From Chrysomallon squamiferum (Eukaryota; Animalia; Mollusca), in the NCBI GenBank assembly GCA_012295275.1, contig CM022667.1, positions 13,516,001 to 13,580,000 on the forward strand: a stretch of 64,000 nucleotides of DNA, written 5' to 3'. Both the position numbers and the translations under genes were made by a program. The notes under the pieces were generated by a model. That model saw nothing but the letters and a program-made list of their open reading frames with translations. It had not been told where the DNA came from and made no database searches. Positions 1 through 64,000 of this stretch are shown piece after piece (within the stretch, counting starts at the first letter, position 1; the number at the start of each line of letters is the position of its first letter).

Positions 1-640
1 AGCGATGAAGCAGCAATAGCAGAGACAGATGCAGGAAAACAAGTAGAAGTGGAAGCAGTGTTAATAGTAATAGTAGCAGAGCTAGTAAGTAGTATTGTTG
101 TACTGGGAGTAGGTACTAAAAAGCATTCATTGCAGAGCTTTCCAAAGTGAATAACTGCCAGGGAAAGTATAGTTTTTGTTCATGAAATTTGAGGCAGAAT
201 GAAATTGTGTTTGCTTGAAATTTATGTTTGGTAACAGACAAAATCTGTTGATGTAGGTTTATCGGGTCATACTGCTATCTGATATCGTTAGAGTATGTGG
301 TCCAAAGTCATAAGTGCATAGCATGGGGACAGTAATGCGAGGTGAATTTGTATATATTTAAATAGACAGGATTGGAAGTGAGGCATTTTGGTGAGATACC
401 AATAGTGATTATAAAGATATATAACTGCAGTAATACCTGTGGTAGTAGTTTTCGTATTTATAGCAGTAACAATTGTAGCAGTAAAGGTAGTAGTAGTAAT
501 ACTAATTGTAGTAGAACCAACAGAAGTGACAAAAAAAGTAGTAGTAGTAGCAGTAGCAGTGGCAGTTATTGTTGTCGTAGTAGTTGTAGTAGTAATAGTA
601 ATACTAACGATCAAATGAAACAAACACATAAATAAATGAA

Positions 641-671
<31 letters not shown>

Positions 672-700
672 AAAGAGAAATAAGAAAACAGTAGACACAC

Positions 701-1802
701 CTATGTTTGAAAGGTAGCGCGACAGAATTTTGTTTTTTTCTTCCGTGTCTAACACGATCAGTCTTGATCCCAGCTGGCCGCAAGCAACACGTGCCTCAGC
801 AAATGTTTCAGGATCTTCAGACAACTTGAAGCACAGTGTTCCCAAAAACACGAAACCCTCATCAGTCGGACAGAAATCTATGAAACGAGAACAACTATAT
901 AACAGTCACTACAATACTAATTTTATATACACAATTATGCACACATCGTTACCGCCGTTATCCCAATAAAATTTTAAAAAATCAAAAAAAAATCAGACGA
1001 TTACAGTATAATGTAAAATACATACTGTTACGATAGAAAAATAAAATTCATTTCACTACCATACAAAGATAAAATTTTAGCTGTTGCCATAAAAAGATGA
1101 ACTTGAACATAATGTTATTCAAAGATCAAATTCAAACAGCTAGTATATAGAGGAAACGATTCAAATGAGACTGTCGCCAACCATAATACAAAATTCAGAA
1201 TGTTACCACTGAAAAGTCATATTATTATTATTATTATTATAATACAAAGGTTAAATTTAGCCTGCTACCTGAAGGAATGTAATAGTGCTTCCAGTTTGCC
1301 GTGTCAGACGTACTGACGTAAGTACCAACCCTCACAGAATAATGGCGACATTTTCCGTTGTCGTAGGCAAACGAAAGGCATTCAGGATTCTTGGTGCAGT
1401 CAGAGCCACAGTGCATCATGGTCTTGACGTCAGTGGCTTCGTATATTTCAGCGTTAGGTGCAGTGACGTAATCATATTTTTCTTTCTCAATCCAAATCCA
1501 TCTGGTGCCAATGCAGCTTCATTGACAGTAAAATAGAACTATTTTCATTACTTGTATTAAATAGTGACATTTAGTAAGATATAATTCAGTTGATGACGTT
1601 AATCTATTTATCATTCTATCAGTTCATCTACTCATTTACAGTATATGTCTATTTGTCTATCTAACTTATGCATACATCCACACTGTTATTCAGTTTCAGT
1701 ATAAAATAAAAAGAGTACGTATATTTATACATACCTGTCTGCCATTTTAGAACACACGAAAACAGCTGACAACAACAGAAACTGGATGAAAGTGTTTTGC
1801 AT
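701..1802 (-). CDS. PAN/Apple + C-type lectin gene, subfamily A, copy A1 (partial; exon 4 lies left of the window). Exons 1802-1735, 1516-1269, 877-701
   Basis: Exon 1 MQNTFIQFLLLSAVFVCSKMAD (signal-peptide-like) ends AG|GTATGT. Exon 2 SCIGTRWIW..MMHCGSDCTKNPECLSFAYDNGKCRHY has the PAN C-x3-C-x5-C..C pattern. Exon 3 DFCPTDEGFVFLGTLCFK..ARVACGQLGSRLIVLD is a CTLD N-half. Reading frame is open across the GT-AG junctions. Confidence 0.85.
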
Positions 1803-2025
1803 TTTGTATGAATAAATTTTAGTGAAGAAAACGACGAAGTGAACAGGTCGTAATAAATATCAATGTTTGAGCTTATCGTAAGTCAAAATCCCCAATCATC
1901 GATTTGCAGCTTTAACATTAAAGGTTGCTACGGTGTATTTAATTTTTAATGCACAACTGAAGGCTTAACATGTTTTACATCTATTTTGTTTTAATCAACA
2001 ATCGTTAGTTTTTATATATATATAT

Positions 2026-2615
2026 TGTCACGAGGCCCACACCATTAAACATCTTGGATATTTTATTAATGCTCAGTCTAGGGTAACAAGGTGCTTTAAT
2101 GGCCACCTAACAAGGAATGTAAAGGCTAAATTAACAACAGTCTATATAATCAATATTTAGCGGTCCACAAGATAAATAAACACAATTCGAGTTAAATATT
2201 TAATTACAATATACAGATGACTTGATAATAATACAAACATAAGTGATACGAGTAAGGTCAGACGGGGAACCAAGACAAAATAAAAAAATGCACGGAGGAC
2301 AGATTAAACAATTAAAGTTTTAGTTATATTAAATGTTCCTAAAGGGTTTAATTGCACATTACCCTATCAAAATAAGAATAGACAATAGCTTACCATACTC
2401 GTCCGTAAAGACAATGTCATTCAAAAAATTTGTTTCCCTGCCTGACTGAGCTGCTTAATTACTGAAACTGAAACTGAAAAAAATTAACGTGCTAATCAGA
2501 GCAAGATGTTGTGAAGAACGTTCATAATTACCAAATGCCAGCGCTTTTACAACAACGCCATGGAGTTAAAAAAATGGCGTCAACAATAAAAAGCGCGGAT
2601 CTGATTGTAGTTACA
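2026..2615. mobile_element. ~590-bp insertion, candidate solo LTR (TGTCAC...GTTACA)
   Basis: Follows a (TA)n tract upstream of A1. Absent from the paralogous flank of A2 (~10090-10250) and present again at 33995-34573. TG...CA termini with an imperfect terminal inverted hexamer; no clean target-site duplication. Confidence 0.45.
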
Positions 2616-2793
2616 ATTAGTTACGATTCTCGATATTTATATGATATACCTCCAGATAATTTCTATCTAATTATATTTATAGATTTTTCATGCAAGGATT
2701 TTCCTGAATTATATAAAGTAAATTATAAGGTAACAGGGAATAATATATTTTTAACCAAATGCAATATATGTAATATACTCACTTGTAATGTAC

Positions 2794-6354: not shown

Positions 6355-7120
6355 TCAAGGACATGGTTTCGAAACCCATGTTACAATAACAGGGCTACTG
6401 ATGATGTAAAGAAATATAACATGTTCAATGTAGTGAACTGTGAAACAAATAGAACACGTGTAACATATTGAGGTGTTGAAGAAATAGAATATTAATAATG
6501 TTTAATATATTAACTGGACGAACAGATACATTATATTGATAGTTTAAATGGTGTATTATGACAGGACAGAAATACAGTTAAGAATAACTAAACACTTTCA
6601 TTATATTGACACGTTTCTGTCAAGTATATCTGGGAGAATGGTGGACAATATACAAGAGGAAAATTTGAGTATACAAAACAGTTTCTGAAGCACGTGACAC
6701 CTGCAGTCAGATAGGTTGAAGACTGATTGTACTGGACACAGAAGAGAAAAAAAACAGCTGTTGGTGACAACATCAAAAGAAACATAGGCAGGAACTTATA
6801 CATTTATAAACAACTGCTACTTCATCTAGTGTAAAGCAATACCCCTCCAATCACTACTACTAGTAAATTACTGTTACTACTACTGCTACACACTGTTATT
6901 TCTCATACTTTTTGGTTTTTTTATACGAATCTAACAGAAGAAAAAGTGGAAAACAATTTTGTTTGGGAGAATGGACAAAACGTCCATTTTGAAAAATAGG
7001 ACAACAATGAATCCGATAACTACCTGGAAGATTGCGCGGTATTAATTCCAACAAGCAAAATGTGGTGTGACATTAACTTATACTTTCAGTAAATATATAT
7101 TTGTGAAAAACCGATGATAA
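6355..7120 (+). pseudogene. Decayed PAN-CTLD pseudogene (exon 2, 3 and 4 remnants)
   Basis: RTWFRNP.. exon-2-like start; exon-3 core GCACGTGACACCTGCAGTCAGATAGG..GTACTGGACACAGAAGAG at ~6690-6775; exon-4 remnant FVWENG..NESDNYLEDC..MWCD with stops and frameshifts. Confidence 0.75.
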
Positions 7121-7786: not shown

Positions 7787-8741
7787 TTAGAGGTTTTCAC
7801 ATATGTATTTGAAACGTCTTTTACATCCAACATCTGCCCATTTGTTGAAACGAGATAAAAATATAGTGCAGTCTTCATGGTCGAAATTATCAGGTTCAGT
7901 TTCATTCCAATTTGTATAAATGGCTTTTTCGCCATTCTCCCACACATACGTTTTCTCCTCAACTTCATCAGTTAATCCGATGTAAAATTTGTCGAGATTT
8001 GACCCTGTAAAACAAATGAATGTAAATGTAGTAATAGTAATAGCAGTAGTAGCGGTGGTATAGGAATAACAATAGCGATGAAGCAGCAATAGCAGAGACA
8101 GAGGCAGGAAAACAAGTAGAAGTGGAAGCAGTGTTAATAGTAACAGTAGGAGAGCTAGTAAGAAGTATTGTTGTAGTGGGAGTAGTTACTAAAAAGCATT
8201 CATTGCAGAGCTTTCCAAAATTAATAACTGCCAGGGAAAGTATAGTTTTTGTTCATGAAATTTGAGGCAGAATGAAATTGTGTTTGCTTGAAATTTATGT
8301 TTGATAACAGACAAAATCTGCTGATGTAGGTTTATCGAGTCATACTGCTATCTGATGTCGTTAGAGTATGTAGTCCAAAGTCATAAGTGCATAGCATGGG
8401 GACAGTATTGCGAGGTGAATTTGTATATATTTAAATAGTCAGGATTGGAAGTGAGGCATTTTGGTGAGATAAACATAGATAACTGCTGCCAATAGTGATT
8501 GTAAAGAGATTTCACTGCAATAGTTCAAGTGGTACTAGATTTCGTATTCATAGCAGTAACAGTTGTAGCAGTCGTTAAGGTAGTAGTAGTAATACTAATT
8601 GTAGTAGCAGCAATAGAAGTGACAGAAAAAGTAGTAGTAGTAGCAGTAGCAATGGCAGTTATTGTTGTCGTAGTAGTTGTAGTAGTAATAGTAATACTAC
8701 TGATCAAATGAAACAAACACATAAATAAATAAATAAACAAA

Positions 8742-8772
<31 letters not shown>

Positions 8773-9890
8773 AAAGGTAAATAAGAAAACAGCAGACACA
8801 CCTATGTTTGAGAGGTAGCTCGACAAAATTCTGTTTTTTTCTTCCGTGTCTAACACGATCAGTCTTGATCCCAGCTGGCCGCAAGCAACACGTGCCTCAG
8901 CAAATGTTTCAGGATCTTCAGACAACTTGAAGCACAGTGTTCCCCAAAACACGAAACCCTCATCAATCGGACAGAAATCTATGAAACGAAAACAACTATA
9001 TAACAGTCACTACAATAATATTTTTATATACATAATTATGCACACATAGTTACCGCCGTTATCACCACAAAATTTAAAAAAAATAAAAAAATCAGACGAT
9101 TACAATATAATGTAAAATTCATACTGTCACGATAGAAACATAAAATTCATTTCACTACCATACAAAGATAAAATTTTAGCTGTTGCCATAAAAAGATGAA
9201 GTTGAACATAATGTTATTCAAAGATCAAATTCAAACAGCTAGTATATAGAGAAAACGATTCAAATGAGACTGTTGCCAAGCAAAATAAAAAATTCAGAAT
9301 GTTACCACTGAAAAGTCAGATTATTATTATTATTATAATACAAAGGTTAAATTTAGCGTGCTACCTGAAGGAATGTAATAGTGCTTCCAGTTTGCCGTGT
9401 CAGACGTACTGACGTAAGTACCAACCCTCACAGAATAATGGCGACATTTTCCGTTGTAGTAGGCAAACGAAAGGCATTCAGGATTCTTGGTGCAGTCAGA
9501 GCCACAGTGCATCATGGTCTTGACGCCAGTGGCTTCGTATATTTCAGCGTTAGGTGCAGTGAAGTAATCATATTTTTGTTTCTCAATCCAAATCCATCTT
9601 GTTCCAATGCAACTTCAATGACAGTAAAATAAAACTATTTTCATTACTTGTATTAAATAGTGACATTTAGTAAGATATAATTCAGTTGATGACGTTAATC
9701 TGTTTTTCCTTCTATCACTTCATCCACTCATTTACCGTATATGTCTATTTGTCTATACGCATACATCCAAACTATTATTCTATTTTAACATAAATAAAAA
9801 GTGTACGTATATTTATACATACCTGTCTGCCATTTTAGAACACACGAAAACAGCTGACAACAGCACAAACTGGAGGAAAGTGTTTTGCAT
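7787..9890 (-). CDS. PAN/Apple + C-type lectin, subfamily A, copy A2, intact, 236 aa, EPD/WAD motifs. Exons 9890-9823, 9612-9365, 8978-8802, 8004-7787
   Basis: 68+248+177+218 = 711 nt, open frame, GT-AG introns. Exon 4 FYIGLTD..YVWENG..NWNETEPDNFDHEDC..KWADVGC..YICE is a typical CTLD C-half. Confidence 0.9.
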
Positions 9891-10492: not shown

Positions 10493-11364
10493 GTAAAACA
10501 TGCAACAACCAGCAGCAGTGACAAATGCGACAGAAACCTGTTTATTCGTTTATGACAAGTGTTTGTTTATTCCCTAGTACAAAATTTTGTATTGTACATT
10601 TCTGAAAATGTTCTGACAGTCATATTACTCACTGTTGTTGAATAAATGTTTTTTTTTTTTTATTCCCTAGTACAAGAATTTGTTAAATTTGTTATCGTCT
10701 TTGCGTACACTTCTCACTTACTAAGCAATAAAAATCTATATTTTTCTGGTAGGTCACAGTAGTACTCTCTGTTGGCAATAAATATTTTCAGACGTCAAAC
10801 TCAAAATTTTGCCAAACAATGAATGTGTTTGCCTTTATATATTAAAATAAATACAGCAGAAACAAAAAACACGAGAATAAAAAAATGAGAGATAAAAGTA
10901 AAACAGAGGAATAACCGTCAGAAATACAACTCATCAAAAGCAAACAAAGAATGCAACAAAAGAAAATAACAGAATTCTATTTGACACAACTGACTGCTTT
11001 CAAACCAGATATCGGTTTACATTGATTCATTGATTTTGTATGCATTTACACCTCTCTCTGAATGATTAAATATTGAATTTCAAGCATAAACTGTGAATAA
11101 TAATGACTTGCTCTGTTGTATTATTAAAAGATCTCTAGTTATAACAGGTTTTGCTAAAATATTTTTTATTAGGACTCTATATTTGATAATCATTATTAGT
11201 CTAAGTTTCACGGAGTTTCATTTGTTATATTAACTGAACTGACAGTTGTAAATAGAAAAGTTAACAGTTAAGATGAAAACCTTTCTCATGAAAGAAATCT
11301 GGGTTTTGGCTCTATTTGTGGATTATAAAAGTGCAGAAAGGTACATATAAATATGCTTACAGAC

Positions 11365-11371
<7 letters not shown>

Positions 11372-11458
<87 letters not shown>
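11372..11458 (+). repeat. (AG)n microsatellite in intron 1
   Basis: Directly visible. Confidence 0.97.
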
Positions 11459-11460
<2 letters not shown>

Positions 11461-12254
11461 TATCTTGTTACTGTTTCACTATTATCATCATCATCATTGG
11501 TAATCTTCAAAATCTAGTTGTTAAATTTGTAATATTGCTGTGCATGTCTACCCCTTGTTATCAAGTTTAAGTCAGTATTCTGATTCTGTTTTTGTTCTTT
11601 TCTTTCAATGCTGTCATTTTGTTGTTGTTTTATTCGTGGGGTTTTTCAGGGTTTTTTTTCAGAAATATCTGGGAACAGAAGTAACGTTCTTAAAATTAGG
11701 ATATCAACCTCTATTTTGATTATAAAAACACACATATCTATTCTTTGTTTTACTAGATGTTTTATTAATAACTGCAGGAGCACCCGTTCATCTGTTTGGA
11801 TTAGAAATCTAAATTTTAACGATGTCGATGTAAACTATGGGCTCCTATCTTCTCTAGATGGAATTACAAACGCTGAGGCTTATGGGATACGATGTGCTTG
11901 AGATTTTCAAATTACAACAGTTACTCCAAATCACCTGGCTGGAAATATTTCTATTTGAATGCAGGTAACGTAGATTTATTTGTTTATTCGTTAGTACTAT
12001 ACTAGTTATTACTGATTTTATTTTAATATTATTAATATAATTTTTGTTTTCTTATATATTTAATTGTTCCAGATGATAAGAGTAGAGTTGGATCTTGAAT
12101 AACTTTCGACTGTTATGATTTACACACAAAGATGCACAGACATACATAACTTTTATACGTAGATACCTCACCGAAAATTGTATGTGTACTTATATGAATA
12201 AATAAATAAACACATAAATATATAAGTACATGCATAAAATTGCATAAGCATATA

Positions 12255-12298
12255 ACAATAACAACAACAATAACAACAACAACAACAACAACAACAAC

Positions 12299-12386
<88 letters not shown>

Positions 12387-12387
12387 G
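12255..12387 (+). repeat. Compound (AAC)n(AAT)n microsatellite
   Basis: Directly visible. Confidence 0.97.
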
Positions 12388-12789
12388 TAAATCAATTAGT
12401 TGTTAAGAAGCACGTTATTTGTAATGAAAAAATCATTTTAAATATCTAAGACGTGAAAGAAAGAAATTAACTGTTTTACAGGTTCATGTCCAGTAGAAGA
12501 CGGGTTTGTGTTCTTGGACGAAGTGCATCTGTGTATGAAGGCTTTTGTGGATAAGAAAACATTTTCTCAAGCACGTGGCGCCTGCAGTCAGATAGGTTCA
12601 AGACTGATTGTACTGGACTCAAAAGAGAAAAACACAGCTGTTGGTGACTACATCCAAGCAAACATAGGTAGGAATTGAAATAATCTTCTACCACATATAG
12701 AATTTATCTCTGCAATTGTAAATAAAACATTCGCTTTAAAATTATTGTTGTTGTTGTTGTTCTTCTTCTTCTTGTTCTTTTTTCTTCTT

Positions 12790-12820
<31 letters not shown>

Positions 12821-13808
12821 TTATTATTATTAGTAGTAGTAGTACTGTTGTAGCTTTTGTTGTCTTTGTTGTTACTATTATTATTGTTGTTCTTTTATCG
12901 TTATTGTTTTATTAATACTGTTTATATCATTATACAAATACAGAGGAACGTTTGTACATCGGACTGACTGATGAAGTTACAGAAGACGTGTATGTTTGGT
13001 ATTTCAGCAGTTCAGGCAGTGTTTTTCATTTGAGGACTGTATTATTTTATATTTTCCGTTGAACACATGGCATGATGTCGAATGTTCCCGAAGTCAGAAT
13101 TACATTTGTGAGAAATCAGTGTGATTTTCTAGATTGTCAGAAATCGATTGTTTTCTGTATTATCACAAACAAAATGTAATATTAAAATCAGTTTTGTCAG
13201 TTCTTAATACTTGATGAATGAGCAGTGTTTATAAATGACAACGACGTTGGTGATGATTATGATTATAATGATCATGACGATAATGATAAATGTCATGTTA
13301 CTGTTCAATGTCTCATGATTGTCATCATGCTGTTTCCTCTGTCATTAATGAAAAGAAGATTTTATTTAAAAATAGGAATCAGCAATTTCTAAAAAAAAAA
13401 GCGTTTTACCGAGGACGGCCAAAGGCCGTTCGCATTTTGACAAACATCAACATAGCAGCACTGAAATGTCACTCTCTTGAAAACCAACAAATATTACCCC
13501 AGCTATATTGATTTACATTATTCCATTGATTCTTTGTCAGTATATATCATCTGCATGAACTACCAAGAAGAAAAAAGTAATAATAAACGAACATGATATC
13601 GTATGATGGCATTAACTGATTTCTCGAGTTTCATGTTGTTCTTATTAATGCAACACAAAACACAATAACGTCGTGGTATTCTGAATACGAACTTGCTTCT
13701 ATTGTAAACATGAACAGTGTTTAATCGGAACCAAATACAGATACACACAGCGTGGTACAAATTATTACACTGGTTAATTTGGTTGAAATTCGTTCATTTT
13801 TGCGAGAG

Positions 13809-14044
13809 ATGCATTACTCACGATATATTTTGTTGGTAGCGTTTGTAATCTGTTGCCATAGTAACGAGAGGTATGTAATATTCTGTGTTATTATATTGCT
13901 AACTACTGAGGAAAGAGACAAGATAAAATGTACAACAAAGTTCTGTGATATTGCAATAAGAGAAATGTATTGTTATAAAACAAAATCAAACCGAATGGAA
14001 ATTAACTTTTCATTGTTTGATTTTAATTTTCTTTAATAATAATA

Positions 14045-14103
<59 letters not shown>

Positions 14104-17052
14104 CAATATTTAAAAGAAAAATTATATTTTCTTATAGAAAAATAAAAGTATAGACTTTATAGAAACAGGAACAAGATTCATACAGAAAGAGCCTAAGCAA
14201 ATAAGAATTATATAAAATGTATTGGTTTGAGAAGGCGTCCGAGTAAATTTCAGATTGCTGAGTTAAGTTTATTTATATCTCTTCACAGAATAATAACAAG
14301 AACAATCACAACAACAAAACATACTAAAGAAAATTAAATTAAAATAAGTAACATGAAAGATAAAACTAAGAAACAAGTAAAACAAAAGAGTAATAATCAA
14401 AATGAAACTTATTAAAAAATTAAAATAAAACAAAATAAATAAATAAATAATATAAAAGCGAACAAACTAACAAAAGAAAAAACCAAAGAAAAAAGCAAAA
14501 CACAGAAAAATAATCCAATAAAAAAAAAGCAAAAAAAAACAAAACAAAAACAGTAAAGGAAAACGATGAAGGAAAGAAGAAAACATAATCTGTATAAAAT
14601 TACATTTGATACAACTGTCTGTTCTGAAACATTGATTTTAGTCATTTTGTATACAATTGCATTCCTCTCCGAATGATTTCAAATTAAATTCCAAATTTAG
14701 TCAGTATCATAATTACCATAATGTTAGTCTCAGTCGTTGATGTAAACACAGGCGAAGGTGTTGTTGACGTTGATTATTTTGATGACATTTGAGATGATGT
14801 CAACTTTTCCGGTGATTGTGTGTTGTGTATTTATATTTATTGATTCCGAGATAGTGTCGAATGTTAAAAAATGTAGTCATTAAAAATTAATTCATTTGAG
14901 TGATTACAACAATTATACTGAACGTTTTCATGTCCTTCGGCTTAATTCCACATTTTGTTAAAGTTAAATTTCTGTCTAAAAGTTTTCTGTTTTAACTGTT
15001 TCTAAGAACTAATGTTTAACTAATTAGCAGCGTAAGTTTCACGGAGTTTCATTTGTGTTAAGAGCGAAAATGAAAACCTTTCTCATCAAAAGAACGTGGG
15101 ATTTAGCAGAGAGACAGACAGAATACACCTTGTTGCTATCATTGTAGTTTCGCATTGCAGTCTTGCTGTGCATGGCTACCCCTTATTATAAGGTTTCACT
15201 GAGTATTATTATTGTGTTTTTGTTCTTTTGTTCTTTTGTTTTTTTTGGGTTTTTTTAATTATTTTTTTAGGAAGATTCTCGGATTAATTCAATTTCGGCT
15301 GCAGACCTCGTTTTATTAATTCGTACTAAAAGTCACGTGTTGTGAAAAATGAGGACGTCAACCTCCATTTTGATTACAAAACTACATCAACTTTACTGAA
15401 AATACTTCTTACTTATCTTTTAATATATATATAGATATTTACTTTTTTGTGTTTTTGTACTAGATGTTTTATTAATAACTGTAGGAGCACCCGTTCATCT
15501 GTTTGGATTAGAAATGTAAATTTTAACGATGTCGATGTAAACGATGGGCTGCTATCTTCTCTAGATGGAATTACAAGTGCGGTGTTTTGTGGGATACGAT
15601 GTGCAGGTAACTCTATCTGTAAATCGTTTTCATACAATGTGCCTGGTGTTTGTCGACTCCATTCAGTGAGATTTTCAGATTACAACAGTTACTCTAAATC
15701 ACCTGGCTGGAACTACTTCTACCTTTCTGCAGGTAGTATAGGATTTATTTATTTATTTATTTATTTATTCATTTATTTATTTATTTATTTATTTATTGTT
15801 TGTTTGTTTATTTTCTTGTTTGTTTTTTAGTATTAGTGCTATTCATCTGATTTTATAGTTGTTCTGAATTGTTTAGACTATTATTATTACTATTACTGTT
15901 ATTACTGTTATTACTGTTATTATTATTTTTATTTTTCAACTGGATATTTAACTCTCACAAATGATAACAACAGGGTACGGTCTTGAAATATGTTCCACTG
16001 TTATGATTTATAGGCATGGCTACATCACATACACACACACACACATGCACATAGACACACCTATACGTACCTACTTACTAATATATATATATATACATAC
16101 ATAAAATTGCATAACCATATAATAATAAGAAGAAGAAGAACGAGAAGAAGAAGAATTAATCAGTCAATTGTTTGAATATACTTATATGTATGTATATACA
16201 TATACACACTTATACATACGTATATAAAATTGCATAAACATATAATATTAATAACATCAACAATAAGAATAAGAATAGTAACAAAAACTAGGACAAGATA
16301 AAGAGAATTAGTCAGTTGTTTGAATACACATTATTTGCAATGATGAAATCACGCCTGGCACGAACAAATTAACTGTTTTATTCTCGCAGGTTCCTGTCCA
16401 GTAGAAGACGGGTTTGTGTACTTGGACGAAGTGCTTCTGTGTATGAAGGTTTCTGTTGAAAAGAAAACATTTTCTCAAGCACGTGACGCCTGCAGTCAGA
16501 TAGGTTCAAGACTAATTGTACTGGACACAGAAGAGAAAAACACAGCTGTTGGTGACTACGTCCAAACAAACATAGGTAGGAAGTGAAATATTGATATACT
16601 ATTACTGAAATAATCTTCTACAACATAAGCAGTATCCCTCTGCAGTTGTAAATAAAACTTTATCTATAAAATATTATTACTGTTATTGTTGTTGTTGTTG
16701 TTGATGGTTGTTATTATTATTATTATTGTAGTTGCTGTGGGATTTTTGGGGCGTTTTGATGTTGTTGTTGCTGTTGTTGCTGCTGCTGCTGCAGTATCTG
16801 TTTCATTAATACTATTTTTATTATTATGCAGATACAGATGAATATTTGTACATCGGACTGACTGATGAAGTTACAGAAGACGTGTATATTTGGGAGAACG
16901 GAGTTCAGGCAGTGTTTTTCAACTGGGGAACTGGTGAACCTCACAATAATAATTTGAACGAGGACTGTATTATTTTACGTTTTCCGTTGAACACATGGCA
17001 TGATGTCGACTGTTCCCGAAGTCAAAATTACATTTGTGAGAAACCAGTGTAA
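13809..17052 (+). CDS. Probable chimeric PAN-CTLD gene, EPH/WHD motifs. Exons 13809-13870 (subfamily C signal exon), 15485 (or 15464)-15732, 16390-16575, 16832-17052
   Basis: Exons 2-4 are open with canonical splice sites. The native B-type exon 1 at 15070 is truncated and has no donor. The upstream orphan exon MHYSRYILLVAFVICCHSNER|GTATGT is phase 2 and therefore compatible. The exon 1-2 join is inferred. Confidence 0.65.
15070..15108 (+). pseudogene. Truncated subfamily B exon 1 (MKTFLIKRTWD...)
   Basis: Matches the start of the exons at 11273 and 20741, then jumps to AG-rich intron sequence; the hydrophobic core and GT donor are lost. Confidence 0.75.
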
Positions 17053-47532: not shown

Positions 47533-47586
<54 letters not shown>

Positions 47587-47780: not shown

Positions 47781-47819
<39 letters not shown>

Positions 47820-47836
47820 CATCATCATCATCATCA

Positions 47837-47874
<38 letters not shown>

Positions 47875-48096
47875 TTAGCCACAGACAACTTTTACATCGG
47901 TCTAACAGACGAGAAGGTTGAAAACACGTTTGTCTGGGAGAATGGTGAAGCGGTAAAGTTCACGAGCTGGAACGAAAATGAACCAAGTGATGGTGCCAGA
48001 ACTGAAGACTGCGTCATGTTAGTACGAACAGATAAAGTGTGGGGAGATGTGCCCTGTTCTCGATACGAAAAATACATCTGTGAAAAACTTATGTGA
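45959..48096 (+). CDS. Subfamily B PAN/Apple + C-type lectin, intact, 239 aa, EPS/WGD motifs. Exons 45959-46026, 46758-47005, 47250-47435, 47879-48096
   Basis: 68+248+186+218 = 720 nt, open. Signal MKIFLIEGIWVLAAVLCCKTAER; PAN FCGIRCAGYSVCKSFSYNVSGVCRLH; CTLD ..SWNENEPSDGARTEDC..VWGDVPC..YICEKLM*. Confidence 0.9.
46059..46531. promoter_or_regulatory. Three Rel/NF-kB-like sites in intron 1 (46059-46069, 46273-46282, 46522-46531)
   Basis: GGAATTTTCCC, GGAATTTTCC and GGGAAATTCC; the last fits the GGGRNWYYCC consensus exactly. Confidence 0.5.
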
Positions 48097-48596: not shown

Positions 48597-48796
48597 TTAA
48601 TACAAATGTGATTCACATATGTAAAACATAGCTGGATAACTAGGAATACCAGCCCATTTTTTTATATCGGCATCAAACACAGTGCAGTGTTCGTTATTAT
48701 TTTCATCCCAGTTTGTAAAAGTGGCTTTTTCAACATTCTTCCAGATTATCTCATCTTTCTTAGTTAGGCCAATATAGAACCAACCTGAATTTAACC
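48597..48796 (-). pseudogene. Orphan subfamily A' CTLD exon 4 (exons 1-3 were not duplicated)
   Basis: Open 200-nt exon nearly identical to 57688-57887; the duplication ends within intron 3 at ~50689. Confidence 0.85.
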
Positions 48797-51440: not shown

Positions 51441-51664
51441 ATGCACTACTCACCATTTATTTTGTTGGTAGCATTTGTAATCTGTAGCCACGGTAACGAG
51501 AGGTATGTAATATCTGAGTTTATATGTTGTTAACTATATGTGAGGACAGAGATAAAATTTACAACAAAGATATTGCAATAGGAGAAATGTGTCGTTATAA
51601 AATCAAATCAACTTTTTATTGATTGATTGATTTTAATTTTATTAAAAAAAATAATAATAATAAC

Positions 51665-51703
<39 letters not shown>

Positions 51704-51760
51704 TTAATAACATTTTTAAGATAAAATTATTATTTCTATTATTATTATTATTATCATTGA

Positions 51761-51814
<54 letters not shown>

Positions 51815-52982
51815 CACAGGTGCAACACAATAATGACATGGATAAAAAATCCTAACTTTGAAAATATTGAGATAACCAAGGCTCTCATATCTTCTGCTGA
51901 AAGAATTACATCACGAGGGCATTGTGGGATACGATGCGCAGATAACTCGTCCTGTGTTTGGTTTTCGTACAACGTGTATGGAACGTGTCGTCTGCATTAT
52001 TTGAGATTTATGAATTCGAGCAGCTTTTCAGCTTCGCCTGGCTGGACGCACTTTTACCTGAGTGCAGGTAGAAAATTACAGACACACGCACATACAGACA
52101 AATATTTTAAAAAATGTACTTAAAATCATCAAAACACACACACAGACAGTAATAATAATTTAAAAATATATATATTGTAAATATATTTGTAGGATAGAAA
52201 AGAAATTTCTAGAACTACTCTTTCAACAGAAATTAATCCATATATGACTTTACTATAAGTATTATTCTTAATTCTGAAAACAAATTATAATTTTAAAAAC
52301 TTTTTAGAAATTATTATCATTTCCTGGCAGGTTCCTGTCCAGTGGATGATGGGTTTGTTTATCTGGACAATCTGAATCTATGTTTCAAAGTAGTCAGCGA
52401 TAAGAAAAATTTTACTGAAGCACGTGACGCCTGCAGTCAGATAGGTTCAAGACTGATTGTACTGGACACAGAAGAGAAAAACACAGCTGTCGGTGACTAC
52501 ATACAAGCAAACATAGGTAGGAATATATACATACATATAACTACCACTGCTCATAGACAGTTAGTTAAAAAATAATTAAAAAGAAAGAAAAAAGAAAAAG
52601 AAGAAGAAGAAAAACGTCTTCATCAGTACCTACCGTCTTCATCTGTGTGGTCTAGGTAAAGTATGCATTAGCTTTATATTGTTTTCATTGTTGTTTTTGT
52701 TTTCATTGTTGTTGTTGTTATTGGTATTGTTATTATTACTATTATTTTTATTATTATTCAGACGCAGATAACTATTTGTACATCGGACTGACTGACTTGG
52801 ATACAGAAGACGTGTATGTTTGGGAGAACGGAGTTCAGGCAGTGTTTTTCAGCTGGGGAGTAAATCAACCTAACGTCGGTGTTTCTAACGAAGACTGTGT
52901 TATGTTATATTTTCGGGTGAACACATGGCATGATTTTGATTGTACTGTAAAAGGAAATTTCATTTGTGAGAAATCAATGTGA
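51441..52982 (+). CDS. Subfamily C PAN/Apple + C-type lectin, intact, 238 aa, QPN/WHD motifs. Exons 51441-51502, 51820-52067, 52331-52516, 52762-52982
   Basis: 62+248+186+221 = 717 nt, open. Signal MHYSPFILLVAFVICSHGNER; CTLD ..SWGVNQPNVGVSNEDC..TWHDFDC..FICEKSM*. Confidence 0.9.
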
Positions 52983-55041: not shown

Positions 55042-56598
55042 ATGAAAATCTTTCTCATCGAAGGAATCTGGGTTTTGGCTGCCGTCTTATGTTGTAAAAC
55101 TGCAGAAAGGTAGGTGTGAATTTGCTGAGAGAGATTTTCTTGGAATTTTCCCATGTTTTATTCTTTTGACGCTACAGTAAGTACAAAAATTGGGTAATCT
55201 ATCAGAGCTATCTCTGGTTTAAAGAGTCACATAAAACTGTATAAAAACAATGGTCAAAATGGACTTGTCCTGTAAACTAATACAGGCCGTCTTACGTTTC
55301 TCAGATCTTAATAGGTATTCTTCAAGATGCGTTTATAAATTAATAAGACTTTCTTGGAATTTTCCTCTGATTTCTTGCTTTGACTCCGCAATAAATAAAA
55401 AACAAATTGGGTAATCTTAATGTACACATCTTCCATTTGCTACGATTTATTTTTGTTTCAATGCTAACTCTGATTTAAAAAGTCACCTAAAACTGTATGA
55501 AGAAAATTTCGCTTGAAAATTTGTTTTGTTAAATCAATCACTGTGGCAGTGTACATTGGTTTGCTTATTTTAAATTTGGTAAGGCGGGAAATTCCTTGTT
55601 TTGTTCTTTCTTTCCTTCTTTTGTTTTTAATTTATTATTATTATCTTAGTTTATTTTTGAGAAAGGCTTTCGGCTACAAACAGCGTATTATTAACTTAGA
55701 GTAAAACACGTGTTGTTAAAATCAGAGTATCAATGTATGTTTTGATTCTAAAAATACATGTGCTTTTCGAAGTATATATATATATTTGTTTTCTTTCTTA
55801 GTAGATGTTTTATTATTGTAGATGCAGCCCTCCATCTATCTGGATTAGAAATGTAAATTTTGACGATGTTGATGTAAACGATGGGCTCATAACTACTGTA
55901 GCTGGATTTACAAGCGCAGGGTTTTGTGGGATACGATGTGCAGGTTACTCTGTCTGTAAATCGTTTTCATACAATGTGAGTGGTGTTTGTCGACTCCATT
56001 CCTTGAGATTTTCAAATTACAACAGTTACTCTAAATCACCTGGCTGGAACTACTTCTACCTCAGTGCAGGTAACCTAGCTTTTATTAATTAATTAATTAT
56101 TTCGTTGTTTCTTTCTTTCTGTCTGTCTATCTTTAAGACTTTATTTACTTATTAGTTGCCTACATCTTTATCAAATGTAATTTTCTATAATAATAATAAT
56201 AATAATAATAATAAATCAATTAGTTGTTTAGAAGCATTTGTAATGAAGAAATCATTTTCAAATTTTCTATAAGACATTTTGATCGAAAGAAATTAACTGT
56301 TTCATTCTCACAGGTTCATGTCCAGTAGAAGACGGGTTTGTGTACTTGGACGAAGTGCATCTGTGTATGAAGGCTTTTCTGGATAAGAAAACATTTTCTC
56401 AAGCACGTGACGCCTGCAGTCAGATAGGTTCAAGACTGATTGTACTGGACACAGAAGAGAAAAATACGGCTGTTGGTGACTACATCGTTGCACACATAGG
56501 TAAATTCGTTTCCTTCATCATTATCATCATCACTATTATTATTATCGTCGACAATATCGCATGCATTGTTTTCATCACTATCATAATCATCATAACTA

Positions 56599-56629
<31 letters not shown>

Positions 56630-56826
56630 TATTATTATTATTATTATCATCATCGTCATGATCCTCACTGATATTATTATTATTTACTACTAATTCTACT
56701 ACATCCACCACCAGCCTCATCCCTACCACTGTTACTATTGATACTGCTACTACAACTACCGATACAACCATGACCACGGCTACTGTTACTACTACTACTA
56801 CTACTACTACTAACTCTACATCCGTT

Positions 56827-56865
<39 letters not shown>

Positions 56866-56888
56866 CATCATCATCATCATCATCATCA

Positions 56889-56953
<65 letters not shown>

Positions 56954-57175
56954 TTAGCCACAGACAACTTTTACATCGGTCTAACAGACGAGAAGGTTGA
57001 AAACACGTTTGTCTGGGAGAATGGTGAAGCGGTAAAGTTCACGAGCTGGAACGAAAATGAACCAAGTGATGGTGCCAGAACTGAAGACTGCGTCATGTTA
57101 GTACCAACAGATAAAGTGTGGGGCGATGTGCCCTGTTCTCGATACGAAAAATACATCTGTGAAAAACTTATGTGA
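55042..57175 (+). CDS. Subfamily B PAN/Apple + C-type lectin, intact, 239 aa, EPS/WGD motifs. Exons 55042-55109, 55822-56069, 56314-56499, 56958-57175
   Basis: 720-nt open frame; differs from 45959-48096 by a few residues (V/L in exon 2, V/L in exon 3, R/P in exon 4). Confidence 0.9.
55142..55595. promoter_or_regulatory. Three Rel/NF-kB-like sites in intron 1 (55142-55152, 55356-55365, 55586-55595)
   Basis: Same motifs as in the 46-kb copy. Confidence 0.5.
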
Positions 57176-57687: not shown

Positions 57688-60598
57688 TTAATACAAATGT
57701 GATTCACATATGTAAAACATAGCTGGATAACTAGGAATACCAGCCCATTTTTTTATATCGACATCAAACACAGTGCAGTGTTCGTTATTATTTTCATCCC
57801 AGTTTGTAAAAGTGGCTTTTTCAACATTCTCCCAGATTATCTCATCTTTCTTAGTTAGGCCAATATAGAACCAACCTGAATTTAACCCTGTAAAATAAAT
57901 AATAATAACTACAGTAACACACGTGTTAGTAGAAATTGTAGCTGTAGTTGTAATAGTAGGACAAGTAGCAGTAAAGGCAATAGTAGAAGTAACAATATCA
58001 GTTGTAATAGCAGTAATAATAGTTGTAGTAGGAGTAGTAATATTAATAATATAATGGCAGTAGTATAGATAGCAATACCAGTAACAGCAACAGCAGAAAT
58101 GATAGCAGTAGTCATAGTAATACTAGTAGTGGGAACAGTTGCATTAGCAGTAGTGGTTGCAGTAGCAGTAGAAAGTATAGTAGAAACAGCGCAGTAGTAG
58201 TAGAATTTGTATTAGTTGTATCAGCATAATTAGTCGTAGTAATATTAATCGTAACAGTAGCAGTAGATATGGTAATTGTACTAACAGTTTCAGTAGAGTT
58301 AGTAGTAGTAGCAGCTGTGGCATCAGCAGTAATAGTATTAGTGGTTTTGCTACTAGGAGTAGTAGTGGGAAAGTAGTAATAGAAGCAGTAGTTTTAATAC
58401 TACTAGTAGTGGTATTAGTAGTAGCAGGAGTGGTACTAGTAGTAGTGATAATAACAGTAGTATTAGCAGTTGTATCATATGAAGCAGTAGGAGTAACAGG
58501 AATAATATTACTAGTAGTAGTAGTAGTAGTAATACTTTTACAGGTGTTAATAAATAGTAGCTGCATTAGTAGTAGTGTGATAATAGTAATAGTAGTACAA
58601 AAGCATCCACACCAGCAGAATTAGTAGTAGTAAGAGGAGAAGGAGGAAGAGTACTAACTGAATGAGTAGTAAATAAAGTAATAATAGTAATAGCAGCATG
58701 TGTAGCAGTAGGAGTAGCAATGGCTGTACTAACAGTAGTAGTAGTAGTGGTAGCACTAATAACAGTTGAAGTAGTAATAGTAGTAGTAATAGCTGTAGTG
58801 GCTGTGGTAACATTAGTAGTAATTGTAATGCCAGGTGTAGTGTTAGTGGCAGCAGTAGTGGTAGTAGCAGCCTTTGTAATTGTTGTTGTAGTAATAGGAC
58901 TGGTAGCATTCGTGAGAGTAGAAGCAAAACTAGTAAGTAATAACAGTATCAATAATAAATACAGCAGCCCTTGTAGCAACATACATAGCAGTATAACACT
59001 GGTAGTTACGGCAGGAATACTAATAGAGATTAATACTAATACTATTAGTAGAGATTGTGGTAGCAGCAGGAGAAGTAGAAATCGTAGAAGTGGTAATCCT
59101 ACTAGTATTATTAGTAGTAACAGTCGTAGTGGTAATAGAACTGGTAGAAATAGAGCAATTAGCTGTTTGCAGTTCTTGTTCTGCTTCTTTCATTTTTATT
59201 TAATTCTTTCTGCTGTTTCTTTGAAATATTTCTTTCTTTATTACTTTACACAAAACAAAGTAAATAAATAAATAAATAAATAAGAGAAATGAAGAAAGCT
59301 GACATACCTATGTTTGAAAGGTAGCTCGATAGAATTATATTTTTTTGTTCCGTGTCTAACACGATCAATCTTGACTCCAGTTGGTTGCAAGCATGACTGC
59401 ATCAACAAAGTTTTTATCATCTTCAAACAACTTCAAGCACAGTGTGCCCAAAAAGACGAAACCCTTTTCAGTTGGACAGACATCTTTAAAACGAAACAGC
59501 CATAGAACAGAAACAATAACACACATACAAACTCATACACGTAAACAAAGAAAAAAAAAAGAAATAGTAATTAAAATAATATATTCGTGTTTCTATATAA
59601 AAATAAAATTCCCATTGTTACGATCTAAAGATAAACTTCATCGTGCGACCTTACAAAGACAAAATTAGACTTTTTTCATAAATAGAGTAGAAAGATAAAG
59701 TTCTGAGTTTTGTGATATAAAGGTAAAATTTCATTATTCTACAATACAAGATAAATTCAAACTTTTATCATACGAAAATAAAATTCTAGAATATTACTAT
59801 AAACAGATAGAATTCATTATACTATCATACAAAGATAACATTCAAACTGTTAGTATATAAAGAAAAATTCTGATCGTAACCACGGAAATACACAAATCAG
59901 AAATTTACGTTAAACTGTTACCACTGGAAGATAAAATTTAGATTATGGAAAGATCCAGATTCGCCTGATACCTGAAGGAATGTAATAGTGTCTCCAGTTT
60001 GCTGTATCAGACGTACTGACGTAAGTACCAAATGTCACAGAATAATGGCGACATTTTCCGTTGTCGTAGGCAAACGAAAAACATGCTGGATTCTTGGTGC
60101 AGGCAGAGCCACAGTGCATCATGGTCTTGACGTCAGTGGCTTCGTATATTGTAGCGTTAGCTGCAGTGAAATAATCATATTTTTCTTTCTCAATCCAAAT
60201 CCATCTTGTTCCAATGCAGCTTCAATGACAGTTAAAATAAAACTATTTTCATTACTTGTATTAAATAGACATTCAGTAAGATATAATTCAACTGATGACA
60301 TCAATCTATGTATCATTGTAACAATATATCTATCCTTCTCTCCATCCATCCATTCATTTGCCATATCTATCTATGTAATCTGCATCTATCTATCTGTCTA
60401 TCAAGAGGTGTGGAAACACACACACACACACACACAAACACACTCACATACACGTTACTGATGCATGTATCCAGAGAATTATTCTGTTTCAACATAAATA
60501 AAAAGTGTACGTATATTTATTTATACATACCTGTCTGCCATTTTAGAACACACGAAGACAGCTGACAACAGCAGAAACTGGAGGAAAGTGTTTTGCAT
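57688..60598 (-). pseudogene. Subfamily A' PAN-CTLD gene with a 1-nt frameshift in exon 3 and an atypical exon 4. Exons 60598-60531, 60219-59972, 59483-59308, 57887-57688
   Basis: Exon 3 is 176 nt (GATGCA-GTCATGCTTGC near 59397) versus 177 in paralogs. Exon 4 is open but lacks the xPx motif and one conserved Cys (WAGIPSYP). Confidence 0.8.
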
Positions 60599-62304: not shown

Positions 62305-62470
62305 TCAGTTTCTCAATAGTTTTTCACGCCACATTTTGCTTGTTGGAATTAATATCGCGCAATCTTCCAGGTAGTTATCGGATTCATTGTCTGATTTTTG
62401 AAAAAGGACGTTTTCTCCATTCTCCAAAACAAATTTTGTTTCCACCTTTCCAAAGGTCAAACAAGTAACA
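62305..62470 (-). pseudogene. Orphan decayed CTLD exon 4 (ESD class), inverted copy
   Basis: Reverse complement of 22760-22914 and 40165-40329. Confidence 0.72.
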
Positions 62471-62479
62471 GCTATGGTA

Positions 62480-62517
<38 letters not shown>

Positions 62518-63191
62518 CTAGTAGTAGTAGTAGTAGTAGTAGGCAAAGGAAACATTTATGACCTCGTGTTACATATTCCGTTGTAGCTAAGGTTTAATAG
62601 AACACAGAAAATTTGAAGGAAAAATCAATAGATGCAGAAAAATAACTGATGTGTGACATGCTGAAATAATAACGTTTTGAGAATGAATCATCCAAAGTGA
62701 CTAAATATTATTTAATATTCACGGACGACAAGGTTTGTTCCTCTGGGAAAAATGAAACTTATTTAATGTTTTGTGAGCTTGACCCAATCAATATTGTAAT
62801 ACCTAGGAAGAAGAAGAACAAAACATTACATTTCCATACTGTTAATCGTAAAACGAACTTTATTGGAGAAAACAAATAGAGCAGTAACAAAGACAACAAC
62901 AATGACAATAATATTAGATATACAACAAATTTAAAGAAGTATAAATAATATATTTGCACTCAGATATCATAACTACTTCAACACGTACAATAAATATGCC
63001 AGGATTTCTGTACAGCTGAAATAAACATAAAAAATGTACAGATATCAATAACCAGTTTAACAATATTAACGCAAAACAATATACAGTACATTACAAACAG
63101 TAGTTCTTTAAATCAATATCTGTCTCTGTTCATTTACTAATAAAATATTTAACACGAAAACTGATATTCTCATATTCTGATATAATAATTA

Positions 63192-63277
<86 letters not shown>
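63192..63277 (+). repeat. (AAT)n microsatellite (one of many AAT, ACT, AAC and AAAT tracts in the window)
   Basis: Directly visible. Confidence 0.97.
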
Positions 63278-64000
63278 GCATCTACCGTACACACTCACTT
63301 ATAATTCGATCTAATTTTATATCGATCGGCCTTGATTTTAAACACTGAAATGTAAACAACAGACAGACTCGTTCGATGGAGGTTGATATGAATTTTAGAA
63401 TATTTCTTTTTATTCTGATTCATAAATTTTGAGAGATCTTAGATTTGTTTATCTTCTTTGCTTTGTTTGTTTTTTTCTTAAGTAAGAAGTGTTATTTGTT
63501 TACAGTACAAGAATCTTACAACATTTCACAGAAGTAAAAATTGCCTAATTAGTTAAATGCAAATAACAAAAATGTTTAACAATAACAACAGCAACAACAA
63601 TACTAAATGGTGGTATACTCAATAATAATAACAATGATTATGATAATGATATTAATAATTATTAATAATAACAACAATAACAACAAAATAATTTCGAATT
63701 AATAAAGACATAAATTTATAGAAAAAAAATGGATATACAGAAATGTCATGTGCAATTGATTTTGATTAGTTAAAACTGTAGATTACTACTGGAAACGACT
63801 TTTTCCTACACATTTCTGTGAGTGACACTTGCTGTTAGTTTAGTCACTTACAAGCAGAAAACATCACAGAACTGATTAGTGCTTGAGTCTGACGAGAATT
63901 CGCAAAGATTTTATATTAACAGTCTATATGTATATATGTATATATAGATATGTCTTTACAATTGATCTAAACAAAAATTCAGCACGGATTAAAATATTAT

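What the first reader, a model, noticed from the sequence alone, without database searches (positions are those of the whole stretch)
1..64000. Birth-and-death cluster of secreted PAN/Apple + C-type lectin genes: a candidate diversified pattern-recognition locus
Seen: ~25 genes or fragments with one architecture (signal, PAN, long-form CTLD), in at least four subfamilies, on both strands and at all stages of decay. Known: CTLDs are Ca2+-dependent sugar binders, PAN/Apple modules bind proteins or glycans, and invertebrate recognition families such as FREPs and C1qDC proteins evolve in such clusters. Inference: a rapidly turning-over innate-immune, mucus or symbiont-recognition lectin family with two binding modules. 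I do not recognise it as a named family.
Basis: partly seen in the sequence, partly recalled or inferred. Interest (0 to 1): 0.8.

Follow-up and report, generated by a model that had tools for sequence, protein, structure and literature searches.

The report
Snail lectin cluster swapping sugar-binding exons
A snail-like genome carries a tandem cluster of about 23 copies, mostly broken, of a common mollusc gene for a likely secreted sugar-binding protein, and recombination between copies has swapped the exon holding the predicted sugar-binding site, which is ordinary immune-gene turnover rather than a new system.

Summary
The window has 23 gene units (67 exon hits, both strands) of one four-exon design: signal-like exon, PAN_1 exon, and a long-form C-type lectin domain split over two exons. 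Five copies have complete open frames; most others are broken. The architecture is not new. The closest relatives are Gigantopelta aegis proteins (36-52% identity, at least 8 paralogues). Abalone, mussel and clam proteins share it, as do ESM Atlas mollusc clusters of 73-326 members and Biomphalaria gene models in a Schistosoma-resistance locus. The added finding is mosaicism. Exon trees conflict (Fisher p 1e-21; AU p 0.005 or less), and two pseudogenes sharing one 61-nt deletion carry different last exons. The switch maps to the conserved third exon, so crossovers re-pair PAN variants with sugar-site variants (EPD/WAD, EPH/WHD, QPN/WHD, EPS/WGD). Exon-wide dN/dS is below 1 (0.36-0.62), so positive selection is not shown. 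Splicing, expression, secretion and ligands are untested. A recognition role is inferred; a symbiont role is speculative. This scan's unchecked notes describe a similar mosaic PAN+C-type lectin pair in an oyster. Verdict: new member of a known kind, interest 0.3.

The parts
701..1802 (-). A1: exons 1-3 (1802-1735, 1516-1269, 877-701), open; exon 4 would lie beyond the window start
6675..7111 (+). F-type pseudogene fragment (partial exon 3, exon 4; stops and frameshift)
7787..9890 (-). A2: complete open model, 236 aa; exons 9890-9823, 9612-9365, 8978-8802, 8004-7787; motifs EPD/WAD
11273..13124 (+). B0 pseudogene: D-type exon 1, PAN exon with 61-nt deletion, exon 3, damaged B-type exon 4
13809..17052 (+). 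B1: complete open model, 238 or 245 aa by acceptor (15485 or 15464); exons 13809-13870, 15464/15485-15732, 16390-16575, 16832-17052; motifs EPH/WHD. Mosaic: C-like exons 1 and 4, D-like exons 2 and 3; relic D-type exon 1 at 15070-15107 inside intron 1
20741..21924 (+). D0 pseudogene: exons 1-3, stop at the end of exon 3, no exon 4 of its own
22773..22868 (+). F-type exon 4 remnant
24740..25297 (+). Inverted, truncated A4-like copy (exon 1 plus first 189 nt of the PAN exon)
25457..25851 (+). C1a: partial duplicate of the PAN start (25457-25527) plus open C-type PAN exon (25604-25851); the rest may lie in the N gap
26101..26300 (.). Assembly gap (200 N)
26316..27711 (+). C1b: PAN exon with two single-base insertions; open exons 3 and 4 (EPH/WHD)
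30663..31096 (+). F-type pseudogene fragment
31751..33771 (-). A3 pseudogene: four exons, stop early in the PAN exon; motifs EPD/WGD
34944..35450 (+). Decayed exon 3 and exon 4 fragment
36478..37947 (+). D1 pseudogene: same 61-nt PAN deletion as B0, frameshifted exon 3, open D-type exon 4 (EPS/WGD); no exon 1 found
40184..40283 (+). F-type exon 4 remnant
41984..42536 (+). Second inverted, truncated A4-like copy (exon 1 lacks its start)
42696..43930 (+). C2: partial PAN duplicate plus open exons 2-4 (42783-43030, 43279-43464, 43710-43930; QPN/WHD); no exon 1 of its own
45959..48096 (+). D2: complete open model, 239 aa, if acceptor 46758 is used (an AG 17 nt upstream would shift the frame); motifs EPS/WGD
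48597..48796 (-). Orphan degenerate E-type exon 4
51441..52982 (+). C3: complete open model, 238 aa; exons 51441-51502, 51820-52067, 52331-52516, 52762-52982; motifs QPN/WHD
55042..57175 (+). D3: complete open model, 239 aa (same acceptor caveat as D2); motifs EPS/WGD
57688..60598 (-). A4 pseudogene: exons 1-2 open, frameshift in exon 3; the degenerate E-type exon 4 at 57887-57688 is assigned to it by position
62351..62443 (-). F-type exon 4 remnant in an inverted duplicate

Best explanation
This is a lineage-specific tandem array of a mollusc-wide gene for a likely secreted PAN + C-type lectin protein, turning over by duplication, inversion and decay, in which recombination mapped to the conserved third exon has re-paired PAN exons with different last exons that carry the predicted sugar-binding site. 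Shown: the gene structure, both folds, the pseudogenes and the mosaic ancestry. Inferred: the intact genes are spliced and secreted; the CTLD binds Ca2+ and microbial or mucus glycans through non-canonical motifs; the PAN module adds a second ligand site; one unpaired N-terminal cysteine may link monomers into dimers, giving the bivalence an agglutinin needs. The most likely role is glycan recognition at epithelial surfaces or in haemolymph. The likely mechanism of change is germline unequal crossover or gene conversion, not a programmed process.
For: Folds: PAN_1 above cut-off in 9 of 10 exons; a profile of 11 PAN exons hits kallikrein and factor XI apple domains (E 2e-5 to 7e-4); an AlphaFold model of the D2 PAN exon has pLDDT 89, and its Foldseek list is dominated by PAN/apple structures such as HGF N domain, plasminogen, SML-2, factor XI and leech anti-platelet protein (TM by query about 0.6-0.7, weak E-values). 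A model of homologue P0001 matches CTLDs at E 1e-10. No 19-residue window after residue 30 exceeds hydropathy 1.3 in the 5 complete genes. Homologues. Mosaicism: B1 shares sites with D2 versus C3 at 95:14 in exons 2+3, but 16:65 in exon 4 and 2:22 in exon 1 (Fisher 1e-21 and 1e-13). B0 and D1 share a 61-nt deletion and 9 of 11 informative PAN-exon sites, yet 61 of 62 exon-4 sites group B0 with B1 and D1 with D2. DNA AU tests reject a shared tree in 3 of 3 tests (p 1e-5, 0.005, 0.003). Intron 3 switches type at its first bases, and B1-D2 dS is 0.12-0.15 in exons 2-3 but saturated in exon 4. Constraint: omega 0.55 (PAN), 0.36 (exon 3), 0.62 (exon 4) over 6 B/C/D copies each. Bivalve lectins with EPD, QPN, WHD or WGD motifs are tabulated, several as Ca2+-dependent (PMC12842671, passages and Table 4). 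A PAN + C-lectin gene pair is a candidate in a Biomphalaria resistance locus (PMC13712769). 11 cysteines after residue 20 in 4 of 5 complete genes.
Against: No spliced transcript was seen and no signal-peptide predictor was available. None of the window's copies has a canonical EPN/WND or QPD/WND pair, whereas G. aegis homologues P0128, P0131 and P0002 do; the review also lists a WHD lectin that is Ca2+-independent. Exon-wide omega is below 1 everywhere; exon 4 is not significantly different from 1 (p 0.054), which fits relaxed constraint as well as mixed selection. Only 5 of 23 units are complete, two of these may be a haplotype duplicate, and D2/D3 depend on a distal acceptor. At protein level with G. 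aegis outgroups, the PAN-exon AU test was not significant (p 0.077; exon 4 p 0.021). B1 has an even cysteine count with either acceptor, so the dimer idea does not cover it. The clearest mosaic evidence involves two pseudogenes.
Confidence: 0.65

Rival explanations
1. The array is specialised for recognising or controlling bacterial symbionts, since the nearest homologues come from a chemosymbiotic vent snail.
For: Best hits are G. aegis proteins. That paper lists genes named perlucin-like (5) and macrophage mannose receptor 1-like (1) as high in the symbiont-bearing oesophageal gland (PMC7895826 supplement file 7); NCBI gives the same automatic names to the homologues.
Against: Those names cannot be tied to PAN+CTLD sequences. 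The architecture also occurs in abalone, mussel, clam and Biomphalaria. The window's species and its biology are not established.
Confidence: 0.12
2. The proteins are shell, scale or mucus matrix components, like perlucin, rather than recognition molecules.
For: CTLDs occur in peltospirid shell proteomes (PMC11871041, section 7); one homologue is auto-named perlucin-like.
Against: In that paper's main supplementary table (cut when stored; domain sheets 10-12 lie in the part held) IPR003609, PF00024 and PS50948 have 0 hits, and the 2 CTLD proteins listed carry the domain at residues 179-321 and 745-849, unlike this family. High pseudogene load and motif diversity are more typical of recognition families (general knowledge). 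Mucus was not sampled in that study.
Confidence: 0.12
3. The array is largely neutral: an unstable, microsatellite-rich region copies and scrambles one or two useful genes, and the mosaics have no selective meaning.
For: 18 of 23 units are not complete; 135 tandem-repeat rows in the window; omega near 1 for B1-D2 exon 2 (0.99) and B1-C3 exon 4 (1.11).
Against: Significant purifying selection between subfamilies (for example D2-C3 omega 0.38, p 1.5e-7; A2-B1 0.24, p 2e-12); four distinct subfamilies keep open frames; G. aegis keeps its own multi-copy set.
Confidence: 0.08
4. Much of the copy number and mosaicism is an assembly artefact (uncollapsed haplotypes, chimeric joins).
For: One 7-kb duplicate is only 0.9% diverged; there is an N gap; several frameshifts sit in A-runs.
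Against: The other segmental blocks measured differ by 3.8-6.7% plus indels. Mosaic partners differ by 4-10% from their donors in the swapped parts, which a mis-join would not produce. Run X1 holds contigs across both stretches laid, with many variant copies, though it may be the source sample.
Confidence: 0.03

Closest known systems
Gigantopelta aegis PAN_1 + Lectin_C proteins (XP_041377129, XP_041376832, XP_041376822, XP_041375600, XP_041375127 and others; auto-named macrophage mannose receptor 1-like or perlucin-like)
   Same: Same length (about 240 aa) and domain order; 36-52% identity to P0001; at least 8 paralogues, 6 on one 59.9-Mb sequence; N-terminal cysteine present in P0001, P0128, P0129, P0130.
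   Different: Window B/C/D copies form their own clade (98/96), so they expanded or were homogenised separately; several G. aegis copies keep canonical EPN/WND or QPD/WND, and no window copy does.
Other mollusc PAN + CTLD proteins (Haliotis cracherodii XP_071083729, H. rufescens XP_046378701, Mytilus edulis XP_071143548, Mactra antiquata KAL4218239; Biomphalaria glabrata gene models 41/42 in LG11L, PMC13712769)
   Same: PAN followed by one CTLD; ESM Atlas feature hits 0.96-0.97 to mollusc clusters of 88, 326 and 73 members, with PAN_1 in 26%, 39% and 66% of members (query P0001).
   Different: Only 21-31% identical. The Biomphalaria genes were not compared by sequence. No function test was found in my searches.
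Caenorhabditis elegans CW (PAN_3) + CTLD proteins, class IV (16 genes; PMC5297725, passages)
   Same: A PAN-type module joined to a CTLD in an expanded invertebrate family.
   Different: Window exons match PAN_1 and stay below the PAN_3 cut-off (12.6-17.8 versus 21.1 bits); common origin was not tested.
Sea urchin Sp185/333 (SpTransformer) cluster (PMC5103432, abstract and outline)
   Same: Clustered small genes among short tandem repeats and segmental duplications, diversified by recombination.
   Different: Unrelated proteins. Its outline has a section titled 'There are no pseudogenes', while here most units are broken; the mapped switch here lies in an exon, not in a repeat.
Snail FREPs and CREPs (recalled; CREP defined as CTLD plus Ig domain in PMC9334734 Table 2, passage)
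   Same: Secreted lectin domain with an N-terminal accessory domain, in expanded families.
   Different: The accessory domain here is PAN, not IgSF; no evidence of somatic diversification.

Membership tests
Mollusc PAN_1 + Lectin_C proteins (unnamed) | One PAN_1 domain after the N-terminus | tested here: met
Mollusc PAN_1 + Lectin_C proteins (unnamed) | One C-terminal long-form CTLD with six cysteines | tested here: met
   fold checked on homologue P0001
Mollusc PAN_1 + Lectin_C proteins (unnamed) | Near full-length homology to database members | tested here: met
   36-52% over 208-235 aa to G. aegis P0001, E 1e-46 to 1e-76
Mollusc PAN_1 + Lectin_C proteins (unnamed) | Cleavable signal peptide | tested here: inconclusive
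   Exon 1 codes 20-22 residues with a hydrophobic core; no SignalP-type tool
Mollusc PAN_1 + Lectin_C proteins (unnamed) | No transmembrane anchor | tested here: met
   Stop follows the last CTLD cysteine; maximum 19-residue hydropathy 1.28 after residue 30
Ca2+-dependent C-type lectins | Canonical EPN or QPD plus WND | tested here: not met
   EPD/WAD, EPD/WGD, EPH/WHD, QPN/WHD, EPS/WGD
Ca2+-dependent C-type lectins | Other site-2 ligands kept (first motif residue E/Q, the Glu of EDC, the Asp of WxD; their roles are recalled from mannose-binding protein) | tested here: met
   Present in 7 of 7 exon-4 copies aligned; lost in the E type
Ca2+-dependent C-type lectins | Measured Ca2+-dependent sugar binding | not testable with these tools
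   needs recombinant protein
Macrophage mannose receptor family (source of the automatic name) | Ricin-type and FnII domains, eight CTLDs, transmembrane segment (recalled) | tested here: not met
   One CTLD, 236-245 aa, no membrane segment
Perlucin-type shell lectins | CTLD without PAN (recalled) | tested here: not met
   PAN exon present in all complete copies
Perlucin-type shell lectins | Presence in shell matrix | tested here: inconclusive
   No PAN accession among peltospirid shell and sclerite domain tables; not a test of this species' proteins
Nematode CW + CTLD proteins | PAN_3 (CW) domain | tested here: not met
   PAN_3 below cut-off in all exons where it appeared; PAN_1 scores higher
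FREP/CREP | IgSF domain upstream of the lectin domain | tested here: not met
   No Ig hit among 19 exons scanned
Six-cysteine apple domains (factor XI, prekallikrein) | Third disulfide closing the N- and C-termini | tested here: inconclusive
   Four core cysteines invariant. The N-terminal cysteine could pair with the first cysteine of exon 3, but that one is normally used by the long-form CTLD (recalled) and is kept in homologues lacking the N-terminal cysteine
Birth-and-death multigene family | Intact copies under purifying selection beside pseudogenes, with duplications of different ages | tested here: met
   recombination adds a concerted component
Diversified pattern-recognition locus | Positive selection at binding residues | tested here: inconclusive
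   Exon-wide omega 0.36-0.62; no site model was run
Diversified pattern-recognition locus | Immune-tissue or challenge-induced expression; copy-number variation between individuals | not testable with these tools
   No RNA holder listed; one DNA-like holder only

The most novel reading that the evidence does not exclude
The conserved third exon works as a recombination hub that combines a set of PAN variants with a set of sugar-site exons, giving each snail its own combinatorial repertoire of two-site lectins that select or police its bacterial symbionts.
Probability: 0.1. Interest if true: 0.65.

Novelty: new member of a known kind. Interest (0 to 1): 0.3.

Why it matters
PAN + C-type lectin proteins are common in molluscs, carry misleading automatic names, and I found no functional study of them in 9 library searches; one pair is a candidate in a snail schistosome-resistance locus. 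This array offers natural variants of both modules and natural chimeras (B1 versus D2: similar PAN, different sugar site; B1 versus C3: different PAN, related sugar site), a ready panel for asking what each module binds. The genomic process itself is familiar.

Tried and rejected
No whole genome was held, so the cluster's full extent and other copies are unknown. A word-based search with one PAN exon for longer proteins found nothing (0 of 27 candidates); the HMM search did. The ESM Atlas did not hold the window's exon, so its results are those of homologue P0001. Expression: no RNA holder listed. Three added RNA runs (X2-X4) were laid on 7600-11300 and 42700-47500; the pieces listed are short and lie mostly at simple repeats, and no exon joint appeared. 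This is no evidence for or against expression. Contig depths of run X1 were not used as copy number. Complex prediction for a PAN homodimer was not available, so the dimer idea is untested. An in-frame A-PAN/C-PAN fusion at 24740-25851 was considered and rejected: the nearest donor after the truncated A exon is out of phase by my reading. Microsatellites as the switch points were considered by analogy with Sp185/333; the B0/D1 switch lies in exon 3, although the C1a/C3 match begins at an ATT run, and no null test was run. First splice models had coordinate errors and the upstream D acceptors, and were replaced. The 'C1' model joins a PAN exon and exons 3-4 across the N gap and probably mixes two genes. 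Pfam found nothing above cut-off in 11 other ORFs. Literature searches; none named this family. Passage searches for PAN or apple in PMC10140915, PMC12842671, PMC9334734, PMC8878817 and PMC11871041 gave no passage on this architecture, and bioRxiv 2025.10.31.685756 lists the two domains only separately. Figures were not visible, one supplement of PMC11871041 was unreadable and its main table was cut; most subscription journals were not searched.
Full report
Scope. The window is 30% G+C, rich in microsatellites, and has one 200-N gap at 26101-26300. No whole genome was held. The nearest named homologues come from the vent snail Gigantopelta aegis at about 50% identity, so the source is probably a gastropod related to it; the species was not established.

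Observation. tblastn and blastn with exon seeds gave 67 exon hits on both strands, which I group into 23 units. An independent query, two G. aegis proteins, gave 90 hits on the window and 0 on the reversed window. The gene has four exons with intron phases 2, 1, 1: a 62-68 nt exon for a hydrophobic leader, a 248-nt PAN exon, a 177-186 nt exon for the first half of a long-form CTLD, and a 218-221 nt exon for the second half, which ends in the stop codon. Five units are complete and open (A2, B1, D2, C3, D3). A1 leaves the window, C1a meets the gap, and C2 lacks exon 1. The other 15 are broken or fragments. Segmental duplications at offsets of about 8, 9, 17, 24 and 32 kb and one inversion account for the layout; the seven block pairs measured differ by 0.9% to 6.7%. 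The 0.9% block could be a second haplotype.

Domains. PAN_1 passed its Pfam cut-off in 9 of 10 exon-2 copies tested and Lectin_C in 5 of 6 exon-4 copies. A profile of 11 PAN exons matched kallikrein and factor XI apple domains in the PDB. An AlphaFold model of the D2 PAN exon (pLDDT 89, pTM 0.78) matched mostly PAN/apple structures, with weak Foldseek E-values; the four top rows were fungal copper oxidases, whose matched region I did not inspect. The two-domain protein was modelled only for homologue P0001 (pLDDT 84), and it matched CTLDs. No membrane segment follows the leader. No signal-peptide predictor was available.

Relatives. The PAN profile found 125 proteins among 1.84 billion representatives. 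I scanned 47 of them, chosen for having one or two PAN matches; 9 had both PAN_1 and Lectin_C. Named ones are from G. aegis, Haliotis cracherodii, H. rufescens, Mytilus edulis and Mactra antiquata. A search with P0001 returned 7 proteins, all G. aegis, 6 with both domains; with P0002 and P0006 this makes at least 8 paralogues. The ESM Atlas placed P0001 next to mollusc clusters of 88, 326 and 73 members. In a tree of 23 proteins the window's B/C/D copies form one clade (98/96) apart from the G. aegis copies; deeper branches are unresolved. [quoted passage not shown] C. elegans has 16 CW + CTLD genes (PMC5297725, passages). Nine library searches found no named or functionally tested family.

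Mosaicism. DNA identity by exon shows B1 close to D2 in exons 2 and 3 (89%, 92%) but not in exons 1 and 4 (58%, 55%), and close to C3 in exons 1 and 4 (89%, 78%) but not exon 2 (63%). Shared-site counts are 95:14 for exons 2+3, 16:65 for exon 4 and 2:22 for exon 1 (Fisher p 1e-21 and 1e-13). B1's intron 1 holds a relic D-type exon 1, and its 5' region matches C3 up to 14132, so B1 reads as a C-type head fused to a D-type body. The cleanest case is B0 and D1. They share one 61-nt deletion in the PAN exon, yet 61 of 62 informative exon-4 sites group B0 with B1 and D1 with D2. Their third introns differ in type from the first bases, which places the switch in exon 3, the exon that is 90-96% identical among B and D copies. 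AU tests on DNA reject the other exon's grouping in 3 of 3 tests (p 1e-5, 0.005, 0.003); these groups were named after I had seen the identity tables. On proteins with G. aegis outgroups, 1 of 2 tests was significant (0.021 and 0.077). Synonymous saturation in exon 4 argues for recombination, not fast protein change. Both sugar-site motifs lie in exon 4, so a crossover in exon 3 keeps the frame and the fold while changing which PAN goes with which site.

Binding site and selection. Motifs are EPD/WAD (A2), EPD/WGD (A3), EPH/WHD (B1, C1b), QPN/WHD (C2, C3) and EPS/WGD (D). None is canonical, but the acidic residues I recall as Ca2+ ligands at the EDC and WxD positions are kept. Bivalve lectins with EPD, QPN, WHD or WGD are tabulated in PMC12842671, several as Ca2+-dependent and one WHD lectin as Ca2+-independent; EPS did not occur in that text and EPH was not searched. 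Codon-model omega over 6 B/C/D copies per exon is 0.55 for PAN, 0.36 for exon 3 and 0.62 for exon 4; tests against 1 give p 0.017, 0.0009 and 0.054. The two predicted binding exons are less constrained than the scaffold exon, but positive selection is not shown. Four of five complete proteins have 11 cysteines after residue 20; the odd one is near the mature N-terminus and is shared with four G. aegis homologues. It may form an inter-chain disulfide; this is untested.

Function. The best reading is a secreted two-module lectin for glycan recognition at surfaces or in haemolymph (0.65). A symbiont-specific role rests only on the biology of the nearest homologue and on names in an expression table that cannot be tied to sequences (PMC7895826, passages and supplements). 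A shell-matrix role is weakened by the absence of PAN accessions in peltospirid shell and sclerite domain tables (PMC11871041, section 7 and supplement). That supplement lists a 239-aa 'macrophage mannose receptor 1-like' gene among families expanded in Chrysomallon squamiferum, at low expression; no sequence was given, so it is only a lead. RNA evidence was not obtained (see Tried and rejected).

Earlier notes of this scan. An unchecked note (e1-9258790) describes an oyster PAN + C-type lectin pair with divergent front ends and homogenised lectin exons. It agrees with recombination in this family and is not independent support. No note exists near this window.

Verdict. Real, well supported in structure, and a new member of a known, widespread but uncharacterised mollusc architecture. 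The exon-3 crossover pattern is a clear instance of a familiar process. Interest 0.3.

Noticed in passing
window 3846-4154 (-): A 102-aa frame that resembles, from memory, the N-terminal helical part of DIRS-type tyrosine recombinases, in a more G+C-rich stretch (about 3.8-4.9 kb); possibly a decayed mobile element. No Pfam hit.
   Followed up: partly
window 2787-3830 and 18176-19193: A 1-kb non-coding repeat, 91% identical, between lectin genes; possibly a non-autonomous element.
   Followed up: no
window 49728-50449: Tandem array of a 119-bp unit, about 6 copies, at the point where an A4-like copy is truncated.
   Followed up: no
acceptors at 25604, 37730, 42783, 47879, 51820, 56958: Many splice acceptors sit directly behind (TTA)n microsatellites that take the place of a polypyrimidine tract.
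   Followed up: partly
window 9612, 1516, 33559, 60219 (-): All A-type PAN exons need the rarer AAG acceptor to stay in frame; the upstream AG sites listed would shift the frame.
   Followed up: partly
window 25457-25527 and 42696-42766: A short diverged duplicate (about 81%) of the start of the C-type PAN exon lies just upstream of the full exon.
   Followed up: partly
proteins P0073 and P0133 (G. aegis): P0073 has a Sushi domain after the PAN domain and P0133 has a long insert between PAN and CTLD, so the family also gains modules.
   Followed up: no
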